From: a virus
Lineage: Duplodnaviria; Caudoviricetes
Virus record (IMG/VR): IMGVR_UViG_3300028888_000057
DNA length: 64,000 nucleotides
Strand: one strand, 5' to 3'
Positions 9,026 through 56,280 of this stretch are shown here, piece by piece (position 1 is the stretch's first letter; each line of letters begins with the position of its first letter). Position numbers and translations under genes: made by a program. The notes beneath the pieces were generated by a model, which saw only the letters and a program-made list of their open reading frames with translations, searched no databases and was not told where the DNA came from.

Positions 9026-9100
9026 GGGGCATTAACGCAACGGTAGCGTATCTGCTTTGCAAGCAGAAGGTTGCAGGTTCAAGTCCTGTATGCTCCACCA
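9026..9100 (+). tRNA. tRNA-Ala(UGC)
   Basis: GGGGCAT/ATGCTCC acceptor, TCTGC-TT TGC AA-GCAGA anticodon arm, GTTCAAG T-loop, encoded CCA. Confidence 0.9.
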
Positions 9101-9198
9101 CGACTGAGGGCGACGTTAGGGCGGTCGTAAAATAAAACTCTGAACAAGTCACTGTCAAAAGCCGGCAAATGTTTGACATACTTGACGTCGTATCTATC

Positions 9199-9267
9199 GA
9201 AGGTGTGGTGTAACGGTAACACGCGTCACCAGGAATGACGAGTCGCAGTTCGAATCTGACATCTTCG
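9199..9267 (+). tRNA. degenerate tRNA-like RNA, anticodon AGG (Pro?)
   Basis: GAAGGTG/CATCTTC acceptor, CGTCA-CCAGGAA-TGACG arm, TTCGAAT loop; C33 and imperfect T stem. Confidence 0.45.
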
Positions 9268-9401
9268 ACGTGTCGCGACTGATGTGTGGAGTTTTGATTT
9301 CTTTCGGCCATACAGAGAATGACAATCCAATGAAAGAAATAGCGGCATGGTGACAGCCGGTTGAAAAAGAAGGGCTCGCTACCCAGTCACCTTATCATTA
9401 T

Positions 9402-9488
9402 GGCTCGTTGGCGCAAATGGAAGATTCGCAAGTGATTTAAAATCACTCGGGGCATATCCCCATATCGGTTCGAGTCCGATACGAGCCA
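9402..9488 (+). tRNA. tRNA-Leu(UAA)
   Basis: GGCTCGT/ACGAGCC acceptor, AGTGA-TT TAA AA-TCACT, long variable arm, TTCGAGT T-loop. Confidence 0.85.
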
Positions 9489-9558
9489 CTGCTTCCTTTA
9501 TGGAAGCCCAACACCTCCTTTCATCATAAGGCCGCATGTCAAAGTGCGGCCGACTTAT

Positions 9559-9652
9559 CTCAGCTTAGTGTAACGGAGAGCACGACGGTCAACTGCATGC
9601 CACAGTAAACACTGTGTGACTGGATGAGACAGTTCGAATCTGTCAGCTGGGA
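9559..9652 (+). ncRNA. tRNA-like RNA with enlarged anticodon arm
   Basis: CTCAGCT/AGCTGGG acceptor, D arm, GACAG-TTCGAAT-CTGTC T arm; no 7-nt anticodon loop. Confidence 0.5.
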
Positions 9653-9697
9653 CTTGCCCATTTTCTGAATAGTGGGCATTCATTAACTAACTCTCCT

Positions 9698-9785
9698 TGA
9701 CGGTGTCTGTTTCTCAGCAAAGTCACATCGAAAGATGAAGCACTACTGGACTTAATCAGCCGTTCGATTCGGCTGGCCGTCACCA
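9698..9785 (+). ncRNA. tRNA-like RNA with acceptor, T arm and CCA but no canonical D/anticodon arms
   Basis: TGACGG../..CCGTCA-CCA, AGCCG-TTCGATT-CGGCT. Confidence 0.5.
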
Positions 9786-9786
9786 A

Positions 9787-9861
9787 TGGGGATTCGTATA
9801 TTGGCTATTACGCTCGGCTTTGACCCGAGAAAGGGCGGATCGTAACCGTCATCCCCAGCCA
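9787..9861 (+). tRNA. tRNA-Gln(UUG)
   Basis: TGGGGAT/ATCCCCA-GCCA, CTCGG-CT TTG AC-CCGAG; atypical T-loop ATCGTAA. Confidence 0.8.
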
Positions 9862-14254: not shown

Positions 14255-14341
14255 GCGAGGGTGGCAGAGTTGGCTGATCGCTCCGGTCTTGAAAACCGGT
14301 GAGCCTACTGGGCTCCGAGGGTTCGAATCCCTCCTCTCGCG
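14255..14341 (+). tRNA. tRNA-Ser(UGA)
   Basis: CCGGT-CT TGA AA-ACCGG, long variable arm, GTTCGAATCC. Confidence 0.9.
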
Positions 14342-14348
14342 CTATTAT

Positions 14349-14425
14349 GCACCCTTAGCTAAGTTGGTCGTAGCTGCGGCCTTGTAAGCCGTGTAATCAG
14401 CTGGGTTCGAGTCCCAGAGGGTGTA
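14349..14425 (+). tRNA. tRNA-Thr(UGU)
   Basis: GCACCCT/AGGGTGT, GCGGC-CT TGT AA-GCCGT, GTTCGAGTCC. Confidence 0.8.
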
Positions 14426-14510
14426 CAAACCGTCACATCCTTGCGGTATATAAATTTGGGTGTCGGCAAGCAGGGCCAAACTGCTGCAGGTGTGGTAGTC
14501 AGGCACATCG

Positions 14511-18267: not shown

Positions 18268-18717
18268 ATGGATCAGGAAGCCAAAGCTGATAATGGTAAA
18301 GCACGACTGACATTGGTTCCGAGAAAGATTCTTTATGACGTTGCAAGAATCAGAGAGTTCGGAACAAAGAAGTATAAAGATCCTGATAACTGGAAAAAAG
18401 TAGAAGCTTGGAGATATAAGGACGCGCTGATGCGTCATCTCTGTGCCTATCTTGATGATCCGAAGAGTGTCGATGAAGAGAGCGGCTTGCCTCATTTGTG
18501 GCATGCGGCTTGTAATATGGCTTTCCTTTGTGAGATGGAAGACTGGGAAGAAAAGAAAGAAGAAGTTGTTGAAAAACCGAAGTGTAAAGATTGCAAGTAT
18601 TGTTGCGAAGTGAATAGAGGAAATAAAGTTTATATTTGTAAAGAAGTAAGTAAATTTGGCAAGACAATCTTCAATATTGAAGCGCCGATTTGCGAAAAAG
18701 GAACAAGAAAAGAATAA
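18268..18717 (+). CDS. dATP/dGTP diphosphohydrolase domain (DUF5664) protein
   Basis: KADNGKARLTLVP..FGTKKY..NWKK..ALMRHL..DEESGLPHLWHAACN. Confidence 0.85.
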   Translation: MDQEAKADNGKARLTLVPRKILYDVARIREFGTKKYKDPDNWKKVEAWRYKDALMRHLCAYLDDPKSVDEESGLPHLWHAACNMAFLCEMEDWEEKKEEVVEKPKCKDCKYCCEVNRGNKVYICKEVSKFGKTIFNIEAPICEKGTRKE

Positions 18718-18738: not shown

Positions 18739-19278
18739 ATGGCTTTAACAAAGATTGATCTGGAAACGATGGATAATCGTAACTTTCACTACAAGGCTCA
18801 ATGGAAACCTGATGTGGAAGAGTACTACAAGAAAGCGGATGCCCAACTTGTAGCCGGAGAAATCTATTCACTGGGAGACAACCCTTCGACGAAGGAAGTT
18901 CTCGAAATGGCCCGAAGTGAAGATAGAGAAATCCATAAGCTGATTGAGTGGGATGACAGTATCGCAGCCGAAAAGCATCGGATGTATCAGGTCAGAAAGA
19001 TTATGGGTAATATCCAGATCACTGAGATCAAGCTGAAAAAAAAAGCGCCTCAGAAGATTAAGGTTCCGCTGAGAATGTTCTACCATCTGAAAGGCGAAGA
19101 AGGATATCACGCCACTCCGACTATCATCGAAAACAAAGACTTAAATGACAAACTTCTGGCAACAGCCAAGGCAGAACTGGCTGCGTTTGTCACTAAGTAT
19201 TCGATCCTCACAGAGCTTCAGCCTGTTTTCGATGCCATCAGGAGCCTGGATAATCCGCCTGATAATCCGGCGGCCTAA
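18739..19278 (+). CDS. putative partner of the RAMP-like protein
   Basis: AAGGAGG RBS; IHKLIEWDDSIAAEKHR..QVR.I motif; directly precedes the pentamer/hairpin array. Confidence 0.7.
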   Translation: MALTKIDLETMDNRNFHYKAQWKPDVEEYYKKADAQLVAGEIYSLGDNPSTKEVLEMARSEDREIHKLIEWDDSIAAEKHRMYQVRKIMGNIQITEIKLKKKAPQKIKVPLRMFYHLKGEEGYHATPTIIENKDLNDKLLATAKAELAAFVTKYSILTELQPVFDAIRSLDNPPDNPAA

Positions 19279-19284
19279 ATCAGA

Positions 19285-19700
19285 GTGCGGTTAGTACAAT
19301 AAGGGACTTGTGAGTCCCTACAACAAGAGTACACATCATATTTCAACACATCATAATGCAGGACATCACATTACAAGTCTCTTGTTGTGCTAATCGCACA
19401 AAAACAGCTTACGATATTATATAAAAGCATTAATAATAACAGTTTATTAAACTTTAATATATCATAACATATCAAAACTCAAGACATTACAATATACAAC
19501 TTCGTTGACTCTCATAAGGGCATGTATTATGTCCTACTACAATATAGAGCAATATAGGAAAAACAAGGACAAAACAACACAGTACAACACATGCTCTTAT
19601 TAGAGTCAACGGAGCATTATTCAACAGTTCTGTTGACAATAACAGAACAAATCAATAAAACACTAAAAATTACACAATCAAACAGTAAAGAACATCATTT
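19285..19700 (+). repeat. pentamer (ACA-like + NN) array with hairpin units 1 (19285-19399) and 2 (19500-19614)
   Basis: 26-27-nt arms pairing with G.U wobbles; 5-nt periodicity in loops and between units. Confidence 0.85.
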
Positions 19701-19735
19701 ATTTTTTGAAAATTATTTTTAAAGGAGAAAATATT

Positions 19736-20404
19736 ATGAAGAAGAACAATAACGAATTTGAACTGCTGAATATCGACGCCAAGGTTAAACATATGGAAGT
19801 CTACATTGAAGGAGACGGAGATCTCGTTCTGAACAAGATGAACGCCCGTACTTTCCGTGAACTGATGAATCCAGATCGTAAAGCAGCGAAAGAACAGCCG
19901 AACGTATGGGAAGACATCATCACTTCCATCCATTGGCGTGATCCTCTGGGAGTAAAGGACACTTATCAGTGTTGTGATGAAAACTTTATGAATAAGCTCC
20001 TGAAGGAAAATGCTCCGTGTATTACCCAGTTCGGTCTCATGCAGAGTCTGAAGCAGGCCGTTGTACGCAATGAGATCGATACCTATAGCACCAAGTTTGA
20101 CAATGCGGTGAATATCATCGCGGTTAATGGACTTATTCCGGTCGAAATCAGCGGCTGGTCTTTGGACAGTCGTCTGATGAGTCCGAAGCGTGGAGCCCCG
20201 ATTTCCGTGCATATCAACCATTTCCATAACTGGAAAGCACATTTTCATGTAGCTTATATGGATAACGTGTACAGTCGGGATCAGATTCTGAACGTGATTA
20301 ACCTGGCTGGATTTGGTCTGGGCATTGGCTCCGGCCGGACTTCTGGTTATGGTCGTTATCATATCACGGCTGTTGAATCCTATACGGATACTGAAGCCGC
20401 TTAA
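19736..20404 (+). CDS. RAMP/Cas7-like RNA-binding protein
   Basis: N-terminal strand VYIEGDGDLVLN; C-terminal glycine-rich loop LAGFGLGIGSGRTSGYGRY; AAGGAG RBS. Confidence 0.7.
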   Translation: MKKNNNEFELLNIDAKVKHMEVYIEGDGDLVLNKMNARTFRELMNPDRKAAKEQPNVWEDIITSIHWRDPLGVKDTYQCCDENFMNKLLKENAPCITQFGLMQSLKQAVVRNEIDTYSTKFDNAVNIIAVNGLIPVEISGWSLDSRLMSPKRGAPISVHINHFHNWKAHFHVAYMDNVYSRDQILNVINLAGFGLGIGSGRTSGYGRYHITAVESYTDTEAA

Positions 20405-20422
20405 TTCTCTGTGTACCAATCC

Positions 20423-20930
20423 GATGTGGTTGGTACCATAGAGAGCTTGTAAGCTCTTAGATCAAGATAGAGTAAATTAGAGCACGATAGAATAGGACAT
20501 AAAAGAACAGCACATAACAAGCTTTCTATGGTGCTAATCACATCAACATATCAGTGCGGTTGGCATTGTTGGAGACTTGTTCTCCGTAATACAAAACTCT
20601 GTATAACAGAAGAATCAACAACAGAACAGCACAGTACAAGTCTTCAATAGTGCCAACGGCACAAGCACACTATAAGTAAGCATAATACAGGACAGCGAAA
20701 CTACAGAACAATGCAGGAGTTTACAAAACAGAAAGTGCCAACGTTGCAGTTGGCACGTTAGAGAGCTTGTTTGGCTCTTAATGCAAAATAGCTTAGAGCA
20801 GAATAAGGTACGATACTACAAAATAGATAACGACACAACAGAACAAGCTTTCTAATGTGCTAATTGCACAAAATACAGAACATCAAACTAAAGGACAAAA
20901 GAAAACAGATAAGTACAGCACAGCATAATA
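20423..20930 (+). repeat. pentamer array with hairpin units 3 (20423-20544), 4 (20554-20662) and 5 (20745-20868)
   Basis: 26-28-bp stems with G.U pairs, shared CTTGT/ACAAG inner ends, 11-13 in-register pentamers per loop. Confidence 0.88.
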
Positions 20931-20944
20931 TTTCTGGAGGAAAT

Positions 20945-28205: not shown

Positions 28206-29627
28206 ATGTTTAGAAATAACGTTGAAGTATTTGACCCCATCCCAAAGGAATATCTTGATCAGTTCAAGAGACCGCTTAATTCGTTTGACTATGCGTTGGA
28301 TGTTCTTGGCCTTGCACTGCTGAAGCCAAGGATTGAAAATTATAATGGTATTGAAGGTGTCTTCTGTAGTTATGAATCTCTGCAGACAGCCGTTGAAGAT
28401 TGCAAACCTGAACTCAGAACGCAAAATCCACAGTTCTACTTTATAACATTCGAAAACAATAGCGAAGATGTTGATTTCTCCGCTTTCAAAGACTTCACTC
28501 GTTTCACAAGGTTTGAAGAATATCTTAAGAAGAATGCTGACCGCAACGCAGTAATCTTCTATCATGAAACTGAAAACATTGTTTATATCTTTATTGACAG
28601 CAGGCAGCTGAACATTTATCATCTATGTCTGTTCATGCTGTCCAAGTATTATCCGGCTCTGTTTAAAGCACATCCGTTAACTGAGAAGGAACTGATTCTG
28701 ACCAAGACGTTATCAAAAACGGATCGTGAGGCATTCCAGAATGAAATCATGAACAACCTTGGCGATCTGACTGAAGTGTTCAAGAAGATCCGAATCGCTT
28801 CTTTGATTCGTCAGTTCCACCAGAACAAGATCGATGTCGCAAAGAAGGATCTGGCACAGATCGAATCTATGCTTCGCGATGTTATGGAACAGTACGCAAA
28901 TTACTCCAAACAGCGGAAAGAAAAACTTGTGTGGCTGACAGGACTGAATGAAACGGAAAACGAAACTGAGGAAGAAAAGGAAATCGTTGAGTATCTGTCG
29001 ACCAACAGCAAGATTCACGACGTTAAGATTCAGGACGGGCGGATCAAGTTCAGCGTTGCAACAGAAATGATGCAGTATAATCCTGATGCATATGAAATCT
29101 ATGCAAAGAAAGGATATATCTTTGATGGCCACTATAACGAGTGGTGGGCAGACATGTCTACTTTGACAGGAGTGTTCGCAGAACGTGACAACAGAAAACT
29201 TCTGCTTGATCATATCTTCAATGAAGATCCTGATTATCGTATCAAGCTGTGTGGTAACTACGATCTGGATATGAACGATAATGAAGTCAGAACCAATTCG
29301 GATTATCGATACGTTGGATCTGCATTTGAAGACTGTTTGCCGAATCCGCATCTGAGAATTCATCGTTGCCTGGGTGGATATGAAGAAAAGATCATGAATG
29401 CTCTGTACAACAACGAACTGATGAGCGCACTGGAACTGTGCGTATATAGTGCTGGATCTGTCGATCTGGACGAAACTGAACAGACCTTCCGGCCACTGAT
29501 TGGCTGGCTTTGTACTACTCAGAAGAAATGCCTGTTGGATCGAGACGGAAACAGTTTAACGCCGGAAGAAGCGATTGTTCAGATCAAAGACAAGGAGAAA
29601 GAAAATGAAGCCGATTGTGCTGACTGA
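28206..29627 (+). CDS. coiled-coil protein with putative prokaryotic E2-like C-terminal domain
   Basis: PNPHLRIHRCLGGY resembles the E2 active-site His..Cys region; operon context. Confidence 0.55.
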   Translation: MFRNNVEVFDPIPKEYLDQFKRPLNSFDYALDVLGLALLKPRIENYNGIEGVFCSYESLQTAVEDCKPELRTQNPQFYFITFENNSEDVDFSAFKDFTRFTRFEEYLKKNADRNAVIFYHETENIVYIFIDSRQLNIYHLCLFMLSKYYPALFKAHPLTEKELILTKTLSKTDREAFQNEIMNNLGDLTEVFKKIRIASLIRQFHQNKIDVAKKDLAQIESMLRDVMEQYANYSKQRKEKLVWLTGLNETENETEEEKEIVEYLSTNSKIHDVKIQDGRIKFSVATEMMQYNPDAYEIYAKKGYIFDGHYNEWWADMSTLTGVFAERDNRKLLLDHIFNEDPDYRIKLCGNYDLDMNDNEVRTNSDYRYVGSAFEDCLPNPHLRIHRCLGGYEEKIMNALYNNELMSALELCVYSAGSVDLDETEQTFRPLIGWLCTTQKKCLLDRDGNSLTPEEAIVQIKDKEKENEADCAD

Positions 29628-39842: not shown

Positions 39843-40697
39843 GGACGATTCGCCCTCGTAAAACATGGTGAACCTATAAATATAGGGTGTGCCGTAAGGT
39901 GCTAACGGGGAAGCCTAAAGCAATGCCATGGTAATCCCGTGCCAAGACTGCTGCACTAATATTCTAACAGGATGGTGATGTGCATTGAATATTAAGCATG
40001 AATTGGATATTGTTGGAAAACATTTTTTTGACAATTCTGGTTTAGAATTTGTTGTACTATGTGAAGCTGGTAGATCAGAATGCGGCAATATGTTGTATGA
40101 TATCAAATATGTAAAGTCAGGATATATAAATAAAAAAAGAAGACGGATAGAAATTAGAAGAGGAGAAGTTAAAGATAAACTAGCTCCTGTTGTATCCGGT
40201 GTGGGTTGCATTGGTGATGTAATTATTCCGAATTCAAAATGTATCAACAGAAAACTATATGAAACATGGAAAAACATGATTTATAGATGTTATAACCCAA
40301 AATGTCACTCATATAAATATTATGGTGCGCGAGGAGTTAAAGTCTGTAAAGAATGGTTATGTTTTGAATGTTTTCTGAGAGATGTAAAAGAATTAAATGG
40401 ATACAATGAAGAATTAATTATGAATAAAATGATTGAGTTAGACAAAGATATCATAAATAGATCCGCCAAAGAATATAACCAGCAAACATGTCAATGGGTT
40501 CTTGTTTCTGACAATAGAAGTGAATCTGCTAAACACAGATGGGATCAGTATAGAATGCAGCAGTAAGGTGTAACGACTATCCCGTAAGGGAGTAACGTAT
40601 TGGTGAAACTCCAATATGTGAAGTGCCATGCCTAGGACTGAACATCCTAGCGAAGATATAGTCTGATCTACATGGAAACATGTAGCTAACATAAATG
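39843..40697 (+). mobile_element. group I intron within the helicase Walker A
   Basis: P1 CGAGGGT/GCCCTCG with U.G; core CGACTA..GATATAGTC; terminal G at 40697; splicing yields GKRGEG-KST. Confidence 0.9.
39985..40566 (+). CDS. intron-encoded HNH-type homing endonuclease
   Basis: YETWKNMIYRCY..YGARGVKVCKEW..F..F..D..LDKD..TCQWV. Confidence 0.75.
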   Translation: MNIKHELDIVGKHFFDNSGLEFVVLCEAGRSECGNMLYDIKYVKSGYINKKRRRIEIRRGEVKDKLAPVVSGVGCIGDVIIPNSKCINRKLYETWKNMIYRCYNPKCHSYKYYGARGVKVCKEWLCFECFLRDVKELNGYNEELIMNKMIELDKDIINRSAKEYNQQTCQWVLVSDNRSESAKHRWDQYRMQQ

Positions 40698-56011: not shown

Positions 56012-56280
56012 GTCAATTACCCACGACTAAAGTCGCGGGCTTGTGGAAATGAGCCTGGAGTTGACTAGCCTAAGGTTTTCGGAACCTACGTTGAGAGAGT
56101 CAGAACACCCATGGACGTATCACCTAATCTGTGGCTCTGTTGATCTTCATTAAAAGTTCTGCTGGGTAGAAACGGTGTGACGGTCACGACAAGCTCTTTC
56201 AACATTGGCGAAGGTGACATAACGGCTTCATACGCGCCGGTTTACAGCTTAAAGCGTATAAGTATTAAAGAAAGGACGTG
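56012..56280 (+). ncRNA. omegaRNA scaffold of IscB
   Basis: GTCAAT..GTTGAC closing stem, CTACGTT and CATTGGCGAAGG motifs upstream of iscB. Confidence 0.75.

What the first reader, a model, noticed from the sequence alone, without database searches (positions are those of the whole stretch)
19285..20868. Five divergent hairpin cassettes, each with a conserved competing mini-hairpin
Seen: units 19285-19399, 19500-19614, 20423-20544, 20554-20662 and 20745-20868 have 26-28-nt arms that pair almost completely (27/27, 28/28, 26/27 and 26/26 for units 1, 3, 4 and 5). Nearly all deviations are G.U on the + strand, which points to selection on + strand RNA, and the arm sequences covary between units. 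In all five, the inner end of the left arm can alternatively pair with the bases just downstream (AGGGACT/AGTCCCT, AGGGCAT/ATGTCCT, AGAGCTT/AAGCTCT, GGAGA/TCTCC, AGAGC/GCTCT). Inference: the long stems are processing substrates (RNase III-like) that release single guides, and the mini-hairpin then forms a 5' handle or acts as a loading switch.
Basis: partly seen in the sequence, partly recalled or inferred. Interest (0 to 1): 0.75.

Follow-up and report, generated by a model that had tools for sequence, protein, structure and literature searches.

The report
Hairpin-punctuated VIPR guide-RNA array
The five hairpins are real and belong to a sheep-gut phage's VIPR system, a CRISPR-like RNA-guided DNA-recognition system first described in 2026; this is an unusual variant whose guides appear aimed at a rival phage's DNA polymerase gene and at a tRNA-Val sequence.

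Summary
Five + strand RNA hairpins with 25-29 bp stems fold far better than shuffles (z -8 to -10). Compensatory changes occur in all 27 stem pairs across 129 homologous units. A mini-hairpin competing for the inner left arm is conserved.

The hairpins belong to a three-part module: a vap-like gene (18739-19278), an RNA array, and a 222-aa solo RAMP (19736-20404). That RAMP is homologous to Vipr of the VIPR systems described in 2026 preprints.

Each hairpin loop, and each linker between hairpins, is a run of about 10-20 A-Y-A-N-N pentamers. Published VIPR RNAs use GGY-NN.

The variable NN pairs follow the published one-base-skip code:
- NN usage matches sense codon positions 1-2 (r 0.90).
- 16 of 141 guides have perfect 18-nt gapped matches in 1.3 Mb of candidate target DNA. 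Skip-0, skip-2 and shuffled controls gave none.
- Window tract 20870-20919 matches a rival phage's family A DNA polymerase 20/20, in frame.
- Loop 1 matches tRNA-Val(CAC) 22/22.

RNase III cutting of the stems and the role of the mini-hairpin are plausible but untested.

Verdict: a new variant of a known kind, with a G-less repeat and a stem-punctuated array. Other first readers in this scan had already noted this same stretch.

The parts
18739..19278 (+). vap-like accessory gene (179 aa), function unknown
   Evidence: A homologue lies on the same strand directly upstream of the RNA array in 88 of 92 related loci. The other window neighbours are conserved in 0 loci. It matches phrog_15946, of unknown function.
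19285..19399 (+). Hairpin unit 1. Left arm about 19285-19313, mini-hairpin 19302-19307 with 19314-19319, guide tract 19318-19372 (11 pentamers), right arm 19373-19399
   Evidence: Fold -46.6 kcal/mol, z -8.5. Pentamer tiling. NN pairs with one base skipped match 22/22 to tRNA-Val(CAC) DNA in 26 metagenome contigs.
19404..19503 (+). Linker tract 1, about 20 partly degenerate pentamers
   Evidence: Tract detector. A related strain (run X4) carries 74 different bases here, and the 30 of them that were printed again read as NN-AYA pentamers. No target found.
19500..19614 (+). Hairpin unit 2, guide tract 19534-19588
   Evidence: Fold -42.6 kcal/mol, z -10.0. The NN string reads like a Walker-A peptide. 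Only matches with 2-3 mismatches were found.
19619..19700 (+). Linker tract 2, pentamers upstream of vipr
   Evidence: Pentamer tiling. No target found.
19736..20404 (+). vipr: 222-aa solo RAMP of the Vipr family
   Evidence: Weak RAMP, Csm4 and Cas6 profile hits at the glycine-rich loop. The AF2 model's best PDB matches are Cmr4, Csm3 and Cas7. hhalign to the SUSP1 Vipr family gives 91% probability. Full-length bridging homologues link the two families.
20423..20544 (+). Hairpin unit 3, guide tract 20457-20516
   Evidence: Fold -48.8 kcal/mol, z -8.9. The whole unit is missing from a related strain's contig in run X3. No target found.
20554..20662 (+). Hairpin unit 4, guide tract 20586-20635
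   Evidence: Fold -46.7 kcal/mol, z -8.1. No target found.
20667..20744 (+). Linker tract between units 4 and 5
   Evidence: Pentamer tiling. No target found.
20745..20868 (+). Hairpin unit 5, guide tract 20778-20842
   Evidence: Fold -50.4 kcal/mol, z -8.5. Two strain differences fall on NN position 5. No target found.
20870..20919 (+). Terminal linker guide, 10 pentamers
   Evidence: NN pairs with one base skipped match 20/20 to codons MDSLGKKEVA of a 689-aa family A DNA polymerase frame in IMG/VR locus L168, in frame on the sense strand. Five perfect 18-nt gapped sites in the target set, none under any control rule.

Best explanation
This is a VIPR locus (Viral Interference Programmable Repeat; bioRxiv 10.64898/2026.04.26.720920) of a divergent kind, carried by a sheep-gut phage. 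Its order is: vap-like gene, two hairpins, vipr, three hairpins.

Shown here:
- Every hairpin loop and every linker between hairpins is a tract of A-Y-A-N-N pentamers.
- The adjacent 222-aa protein is a Vipr-family RAMP.
- The NN pairs of this family match natural DNA when one target base is skipped between pairs, mostly in frame with codon positions 1-2 of the sense strand.
- For this window, tract 20870-20919 matches a family A DNA polymerase gene of a rival phage family, and loop 1 matches a 32-nt stretch of tRNA-Val(CAC).

Inferred by analogy with the solved SUSP1 complex (10.64898/2026.04.26.720927): one Vipr protomer binds each pentamer, buries the fixed A-Y-A and presents NN. The filament then binds double-stranded target DNA and silences or blocks it.

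Inferred from anatomy only: the 25-29 bp stems punctuate the array. They are probably cut by a double-strand-specific RNase such as host RNase III, so that loop tracts and linker tracts become separate RNAs of about 100 nt. The mini-hairpin would then hold the freed inner left arm as a 5' handle, or would keep the first right-arm pentamer (ACAAG, in register with the loop) open for Vipr.
For: Pentamer code:
- Identity autocorrelation at lags 5, 10, 15 and 20 gives z 21-29 over 111 loops.
- The pentamer profile is A .71, C/T .82, A .88, then two variable positions.
- There are 177 tracts on the + strand and 1 on the - strand in 643 kb. In the window they occur only at 19318-20934.

Protein:
- Foldseek's best PDB hits are Cmr4 and Csm3 (E 4e-5 to 1e-3).
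- hhalign to the SUSP1 Vipr family gives 91% probability, E 1e-6.
- Bridging proteins align over their full length to both profiles (P0269: 2e-33 and 1e-12).

Module: vap-like gene, array and vipr co-occur in 88 of 92 loci.

Code use:
- NN frequencies correlate with sense codon positions 1-2 at r 0.90, against 0.52 or less for other frames. After removing base composition the correlation is still 0.87.
- Guides with 2 or fewer mismatches in the 1.3 Mb target set: 9 under skip-1, against 0, 1, 0 and 0 under the controls.
- Perfect 18-nt gapped matches: 16 guides under skip-1, against 0, 0, 0 and 1.
- 12 of 14 top hits lie in frame in ORFs of 374-771 aa, including polymerase motifs A and B.
- Loop 1 matches 22/22 in 26 contigs.

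Strain data: point changes inside tracts fall on the Y position (C/T swaps) or on NN. Whole units or linkers are swapped between strains.
Against: - No RNA ends, RNP or DNA binding were observed for this family.
- Four of the five loop guides and three linker tracts have no target yet.
- The tRNA-Val match is effectively a single independent match. My rough expectation by chance is about 0.05, which assumes about 1e12 searched positions. A tRNA is not a coding target.
- The fixed trinucleotide (AYA) and the long closing stem differ from every VIPR RNA described in the text of the papers I could read, so details of binding may differ.
- The vap-like protein shows no similarity to SUSP1 Vap1.
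- The target set was reached through loop 1's own hits, so loop 1 must be left out of the skip-rule statistics. 15 other guides remain.
Confidence: 0.8

Rival explanations
1. The stems are not cut. Each mature RNA is a stem-closed lollipop in which the long helix is the structural cap (the counterpart of the SUSP1 3' pseudoknot tail), and only the loop tracts act as guides.
For: SUSP1 vrRNAs carry a structured 3' tail that caps the filament (10.64898/2026.04.26.720927). The stems covary very strongly, as expected of a retained structure. The right arm starts in pentamer register.
Against: Linker tracts outside the stems also have specific in-frame targets: window 20870-20919 at 20/20, plus L060, L061 and L018. 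They must therefore be released or used as well. The conserved mini-hairpin competes with the inner stem.
Confidence: 0.25
2. The hairpins are ordinary RNase III or stability elements that shape the mRNA of a highly expressed early gene, as between phage T7 early genes, and have no guide function.
For: They are long perfect dsRNA stems in intergenic positions on the coding strand.
Against: This does not explain the strict 5-nt A-Y-A-N-N periodicity, the exclusive linkage to a Vipr-family RAMP across 92 loci and 5 genomes, the codon-like NN usage or the skip-1 target matches.
Confidence: 0.04
3. The RAMP and RNAs act as an anti-CRISPR decoy: a Cas7 mimic plus pseudo-crRNAs that poison the host's type III complexes.
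For: The best solved structural matches are Csm3 and Cmr4. Phage RNA anti-CRISPRs are known (my own knowledge, not checked here).
Against: The protein groups with Vipr rather than with Csm3 at sequence level. The RNAs have a 5-nt period, not 6-nt, and no CRISPR repeat. The NN pairs match rival-phage genes, not host features.
Confidence: 0.03

Closest known systems
VIPR type II of Escherichia phage SUSP1 (bioRxiv 10.64898/2026.04.26.720920 and 10.64898/2026.04.26.720927)
   Same: Phage-borne. A small solo RAMP with a glycine-rich loop, an accessory gene beside it and intergenic RNAs of about 100 nt made of 9-16 pentamers (three fixed and two variable bases). The NN pairs read DNA with one base skipped, mostly the codon wobble base. 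The targets are rival mobile elements.
   Different: - The fixed bases are A-Y-A, not G-G-Y.
- SUSP1 loop residues D177 and W178, which hold the two guanines, align to invariant S199 and G200 here. R179 is kept as R201.
- The tracts are enclosed by, or alternate with, 25-29 bp long-range stems instead of ending in a 3' pseudoknot tail.
- The accessory protein is unrelated.
- The hosts are probably gut Bacillota (MAG bins, so uncertain).
Non-canonical VIPR arrays found by a genomic language model (bioRxiv 10.64898/2026.10.21.760802)
   Same: That paper reports 21 clusters of 5-nt-period arrays beside Vipr-like folds with fixed trinucleotides other than GGY.
   Different: The text names GAC, CAC, WGT and TGH. 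A-Y-A is not named. I could not see its figure S10, so this family may or may not be among them. No stems, targets or skip-rule test are described for those clusters.
Hammerhead-interspersed and staggered VIPR arrays (10.64898/2026.04.26.720920, figs S18-S19)
   Same: Arrays in which a structured element between guides provides the cut that separates them.
   Different: Here the separator is a plain long dsRNA helix with no ribozyme match in Rfam, so a host nuclease would be needed. One helix would separate two kinds of guide, loop and linker.
Class 1 CRISPR Cas7 backbones (Csm3, Cmr4), and RNase III maturation of type II pre-crRNA:tracrRNA
   Same: The RAMP fold binds a guide periodically. 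A long RNA duplex serving as an RNase III substrate is an established route to guide maturation.
   Different: There are no cas genes and no CRISPR repeats. The period is 5 nt rather than 6 nt, and pairing is gapped in 2-nt steps. The duplex forms within one transcript.

Membership tests
VIPR system | Solo RAMP (Vipr) with RRM core and glycine-rich loop, outside a CRISPR-cas context | tested here: met
   Foldseek gives Cas7-family matches. HMM and hhalign links to SUSP1 Vipr, with full-length bridging proteins. None of the non-module neighbours tested is conserved across 92 loci. I did not scan the whole window for cas genes.
VIPR system | Guide RNA made of about 9-16 tandem pentamers, three fixed bases and two hypervariable bases | tested here: met
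   Strong 5-nt periodicity and a pentamer profile with three fixed and two variable positions.
VIPR system | Canonical fixed trinucleotide GGY (or the published NNNGG, YNNNG, NNNNG variants) | tested here: not met
   The fixed bases are A, C/T, A, with G at 12%, 4% and 4% of those three positions. This defines a variant and does not exclude membership, because non-GGY arrays are reported (10.64898/2026.10.21.760802).
VIPR system | Targets specified by NN pairs with one target base skipped, usually the codon wobble base | tested here: met
   Tested in silico only. Skip-1 gave 16 guides with perfect 18-nt gapped matches, against 0 for skip-0, skip-2 and shuffled guides.
VIPR system | Conserved structured 3' tail (a pseudoknot in the SUSP1 clade) | tested here: inconclusive
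   No common 3' tail was seen. Loop tracts end in the right arm of a long stem, linker tracts end in the next left arm, and the last tract has no arm. Pseudoknots were not searched for.
VIPR system | Adjacent accessory (vap) gene | tested here: met
   A conserved co-oriented neighbour is present in 88 of 92 loci. It has no similarity to SUSP1 Vap1, so it cannot be assigned to vap1-6.
VIPR system | Vipr-RNA complex binds dsDNA and silences it | not testable with these tools
   This needs pull-down, binding and reporter assays.
Type III CRISPR-Cas | CRISPR repeat-spacer array, with Cas10 and Cas5 partners for the Cas7 subunit | tested here: not met
   Repeat search and Rfam show no CRISPR array at the locus. 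Apart from the vap-like gene, none of the neighbours tested is conserved. The period is 5 nt.
RNase III processing site | Roughly 20 bp or more of near-perfect dsRNA, cleaved in vivo by RNase III | tested here: inconclusive
   The duplex requirement is met, at 25-29 bp. Cleavage could not be tested, because the RNA run is kept as contigs.

The most novel reading that the evidence does not exclude
A new route of VIPR guide biogenesis and use. One long helix per cassette would be cut by a host dsRNA nuclease to release two guides, one from the loop and one from the linker. A conserved mini-hairpin would act as a conformational switch that hands the inner stem over to the growing Vipr filament. 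The A-Y-A-reading Vipr (S199/G200 in place of D177/W178) would show that the fixed part of the code can be re-specified. At least one guide would be aimed at a non-coding tRNA-Val segment that also occurs as partial copies beside variable gene islands. That would mean VIPR can block integration or excision, or silence a host tRNA gene, and not only repress protein genes.
Probability: 0.3. Interest if true: 0.75.

Novelty: new variant of a known kind. Interest (0 to 1): 0.62.

Why it matters
VIPR was described only in 2026, and almost everything known about it comes from GGY-NN systems of Proteobacteria phages. This family has more than 2,000 protein relatives in gut and rumen metagenomes.

- It shows in silico that the one-base-skip code holds when the fixed trinucleotide is completely different and contains no G.
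- It points to the glycine-loop residues that may set that specificity.
- It shows a new way of laying out and probably maturing guide arrays.
- It gives concrete natural targets: catalytic motifs of a rival phage's DNA polymerase, and a tRNA-Val segment.

A second, orthogonal repeat and protein pair would also be useful for running two programmable VIPR tools side by side.

Tried and rejected
- Rfam at gathering threshold gave nothing at the locus.
- blastn of the locus against isolated phages found no match. tblastn of Vipr found only weak C-terminal hits in Gordonia phages.
- Exact one-base-skip patterns in IMG/VR gave 0 hits each for loops 1, 2, 3 and 4, the loop 5 core, and the L084 guide.
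- Loop 5 with up to 3 mismatches in 151 genomes of G001's order gave 0 hits.
- Loop 2 with up to 3 mismatches in 121 genomes gave 12 hits, against 4 for the reversed control. The best hits are Walker-A-like coding stretches. This is too weak to call a target.
- Guides searched against the VIPR loci themselves (0.64 Mb) showed no excess under any skip rule, so there is no sign of self-targeting or targeting of sister loci.
- The loop 1 site is not within 10 kb of the polymerase gene in the 80 IMG/VR loci. ORFs next to the partial tRNA-Val copies are varied (histidine kinase, Schlafen/AlbA_2, permease, resolvase) and none is a tyrosine integrase, so the idea that this is an attachment site is unproven.
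- The vap-like protein has no convincing structural match: Foldseek PDB best E 0.8, VIA wide search best Z 4.0.
- The metatranscriptome run X11 holds two identical short contigs (19200-19332 and 19828-20029) at low depth. This proves neither transcription nor RNA ends.
- No whole genome is held for this window.
- I did not use complex prediction: a filament of copies was judged not worth the job.
- I considered and dropped retron ncRNA, type III toxin-antitoxin repeats, TIGR-Tas arrays and CsrB-like sponges. None fits a 5-nt period beside a RAMP.

Full report
**1. The observation**

The region lies in a stretch of co-oriented small phage genes.

- All five units fold as + strand RNA into long hairpins of -42.6 to -50.4 kcal/mol, with z -8.1 to -10.0 against dinucleotide shuffles. 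Stems are 25-29 bp and loops 55-68 nt.
- The reverse strand folds far worse, because many pairs are G.U on the + strand.
- Among the five paralogues, 17 of 27 pairs keep pairing through double changes.
- A covariance model built from the five units (R1) finds nothing else of note in the window. The only other hit is weak, at 40194-40319, E 0.012.

**2. Context**

The hairpins flank a single ORF, 19736-20404. It gives weak RAMP, Csm4 and Cas6 profile hits at a C-terminal glycine-rich loop.

- The protein has more than 2,270 unnamed metagenomic relatives.
- An AlphaFold model (pLDDT 72) has Cmr4, Csm3 and other Cas7 proteins as its best solved matches (E 4e-5 to 1e-3, TM about 0.45).
- In 80 IMG/VR loci that carry a homologue, R1 finds 226 units. 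Nearly all are on the gene's strand and within 1-2 kb upstream of it, in arrays of 2 to about 10 units.
- In five whole MAG genomes, R1 hits occur only at these loci.
- Over 129 units the stem shows compensatory change at all 27 pairs. 93.3% of cells pair, against 55% shuffled and about 40% slid (the alignment was fitted to the model).
- The 179-aa gene upstream (18739-19278) accompanies the array in 88 of 92 loci. None of the other neighbours tested is conserved.

**3. The loops are a code**

- Identity autocorrelation peaks at lags 5, 10, 15 and 20, with z 21-29.
- The unit is A (.71), C/T (.82), A (.88), N, N.
- Tracts of 8 or more units occur 177 times on the + strand and once on the - strand in 643 kb. 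In the window they occur only between 19318 and 20934.
- The linkers between hairpins are pentamer tracts too.
- The right arm begins in register, with ACAAG.

**4. Literature**

A full-text search found the VIPR preprints.

- In 10.64898/2026.04.26.720920, a phage-borne ancestral RAMP (Vipr) with an accessory vap gene uses RNAs of about 100 nt. Each is built of 9-16 GGY-NN pentamers followed by a 3' tail. The NN pairs read dsDNA with one base skipped, usually the wobble base, and the targets are rival phages and satellites.
- Cryo-EM (10.64898/2026.04.26.720927) shows one protomer per repeat. D177 and W178 hold the two guanines and R179 holds the pyrimidine.
- Seven types are described, with staggered, hammerhead-interspersed or single arrays and the alternative consensus forms NNNGG, YNNNG and NNNNG.
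- A later preprint (10.64898/2026.10.21.760802) lists 21 clusters with other fixed trinucleotides and names GAC, CAC, WGT and TGH. A-Y-A is not named, and the word 'stem' does not occur in the first VIPR preprint.
- I could not see any figures.

**5. Is the protein a Vipr?**

I located the SUSP1 locus by its YNNGG tracts in KT454805.2. The vipr gene is at 28474-29061 on the minus strand.

- Profile against profile gives 91% probability, E 1e-6, over the C-terminal 49 columns.
- An exhaustive profile search from the window's family returns 534 representatives.
- Many of these are full-length hits of the SUSP1-family HMM: P0372 at 3e-24, P0307 at 2e-16, P0269 at 1e-12. The window's own protein scores 6e-6.
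- Membership of the Vipr family is therefore well supported.
- In the alignment, SUSP1 D177, W178 and R179 correspond to S199, G200 and R201, all invariant in the window's family. Loss of the two guanine-binding residues fits a G-less repeat. That link is my inference.

**6. Does it use the same code?**

- NN usage over 151 guides (2,058 pairs) correlates with sense codon positions 1-2 of phage ORFs at r 0.90 (KL 0.03 bits). The five other frames give 0.52 or less. The correlation survives removal of base composition (r 0.87).
- Exact skip-1 patterns for the loops found nothing in IMG/VR.
- Loop 1's pattern (22 specified bases, all 11 loop pentamers) hit 26 metagenome contigs. All 26 carry the same stretch of tRNA-Val(CAC), from the 3' side of the D stem to the T stem. 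Some lie in intact tRNA genes and many in partial 3' copies.
- One such contig, L112, carries a family A DNA polymerase gene, DUF3800, Hachiman HamA and HamB, and then the partial tRNA.
- Guides of other VIPR phages hit that polymerase gene in frame, for example L084 at 21/24.
- I fetched 80 IMG/VR phage loci with this polymerase and scanned 141 guides against 1.3 Mb. Results are below.

| Rule | Guides with 2 or fewer mismatches | Guides with a perfect 18-nt gapped match |
|---|---|---|
| skip-1 | 9 | 16 |
| skip-0 | 0 | 0 |
| skip-2 | 1 | 0 |
| shuffled NN order | 0 | 0 |
| swapped dinucleotide | 0 | 1 |

- Loop 1 must be discounted from these counts, because its own hits seeded part of the target set.
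- Twelve of the 14 best hits lie in frame on the sense strand of ORFs of 374-771 aa. They include polymerase motif A (DFSAIEARVIAFLA, 27/30), motif B (QKGKIAELALGY) and a helicase P-loop. One 18-pentamer guide matches 34/36.
- The window's terminal linker tract 20870-20919 matches 20/20 to codons MDSLGKKEVA of the polymerase.
- Both stem-enclosed and inter-stem tracts have targets (my loop-or-linker call is approximate).

**7. Strain variation**

The window comes from a sheep gut metagenome. Contigs of related strains show three things:

- Unit 3 is absent in one strain.
- Linker 1 is replaced in another strain by 74 different bases. The 30 of them that were printed again read as pentamers.
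- Of the five point differences I mapped onto guide tracts, three are C/T swaps at the Y position and two fall on NN position 5.

**8. The mini-hairpin and the stems**

The mini-hairpin is conserved and its sequence varies between units. It competes with the innermost 5-9 bp of the long stem.

Both sides of each stem carry guides, so the stems most simply serve to separate them. Their length fits RNase III substrates, and no ribozyme is detected. SUSP1 tracts are not enclosed by long-range stems. Each is preceded by a local hairpin.

Processing and the switch role remain inferences.

**9. Verdict**

The finding is real and its guide-cassette reading is largely right. It is a member of the newly described VIPR kind, so it is not categorically new. 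The A-Y-A repeat, the stem-punctuated double-guide array, the altered loop residues and the identified natural targets make it a new variant worth experimental follow-up.

Noticed in passing
window 56012-56223 (+): Full-length HEARO RNA (RF02033, 128 bits), the RNA partner of IscB-type HNH nucleases, in the same phage window.
   Followed up: no
window 18268-18717 (+): A 149-aa protein with the dATP/dGTP diphosphohydrolase N-terminal domain (PF18909, E 1e-26), just upstream of the VIPR module. Enzymes of this kind occur in phages that replace adenine. Not conserved next to vipr in other loci.
   Followed up: partly
window 9026-9861 and 14255-14426 (+): Seven phage tRNA genes (Ala, Pro, Leu, Gln x2, Ser, Thr). 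The 95-nt tRNA-Gln(CTG) at 9559-9653 is called by ARAGORN but not by Rfam. No tRNA-Val is present, although loop 1 matches tRNA-Val(CAC).
   Followed up: no
window 40194-40319 (+): Weak match to the hairpin model (18.8 bits, E 0.012), far from the VIPR locus. The tract detector finds no pentamer tract there. Possibly chance, or a decayed solo unit.
   Followed up: partly
window 19534-19588 (loop of unit 2): Read as codon positions 1-2, the NN pairs spell L-[IM]-[DE]-[IM]-G-[KN]-G-[KN]-T-V-T, which looks like a Walker A / helicase motif I. The closest DNA matches in Oscillospirales-type genomes encode LMEMGTGKTIT, with 2 mismatches.
   Followed up: partly
L112 1-8701 (rumen metagenome contig): A family A DNA polymerase gene targeted by several VIPR guides lies beside DUF3800, a Hachiman pair (HamA plus helicase) and a partial tRNA-Val(CAC) copy at the contig end. 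This looks like the edge of an integrated element carrying a defence system.
   Followed up: partly
L082 29130-29275 and 27865-28010 (- strand; phage SUSP1): Two of the SUSP1 GGY-NN tracts (the upstream one and the first downstream one) are each preceded by a strong local hairpin of about 20 bp. I did not see this mentioned in the parts of the VIPR papers I read. It may be a terminator or a processing signal.
   Followed up: no
window 20421-20554 and 19402-19499: In related strains from other sheep-gut and gut runs, whole cassettes are gained, lost or replaced while the flanks stay about 95-100% identical. This suggests fast turnover of guides by recombination between the similar arms.
   Followed up: partly
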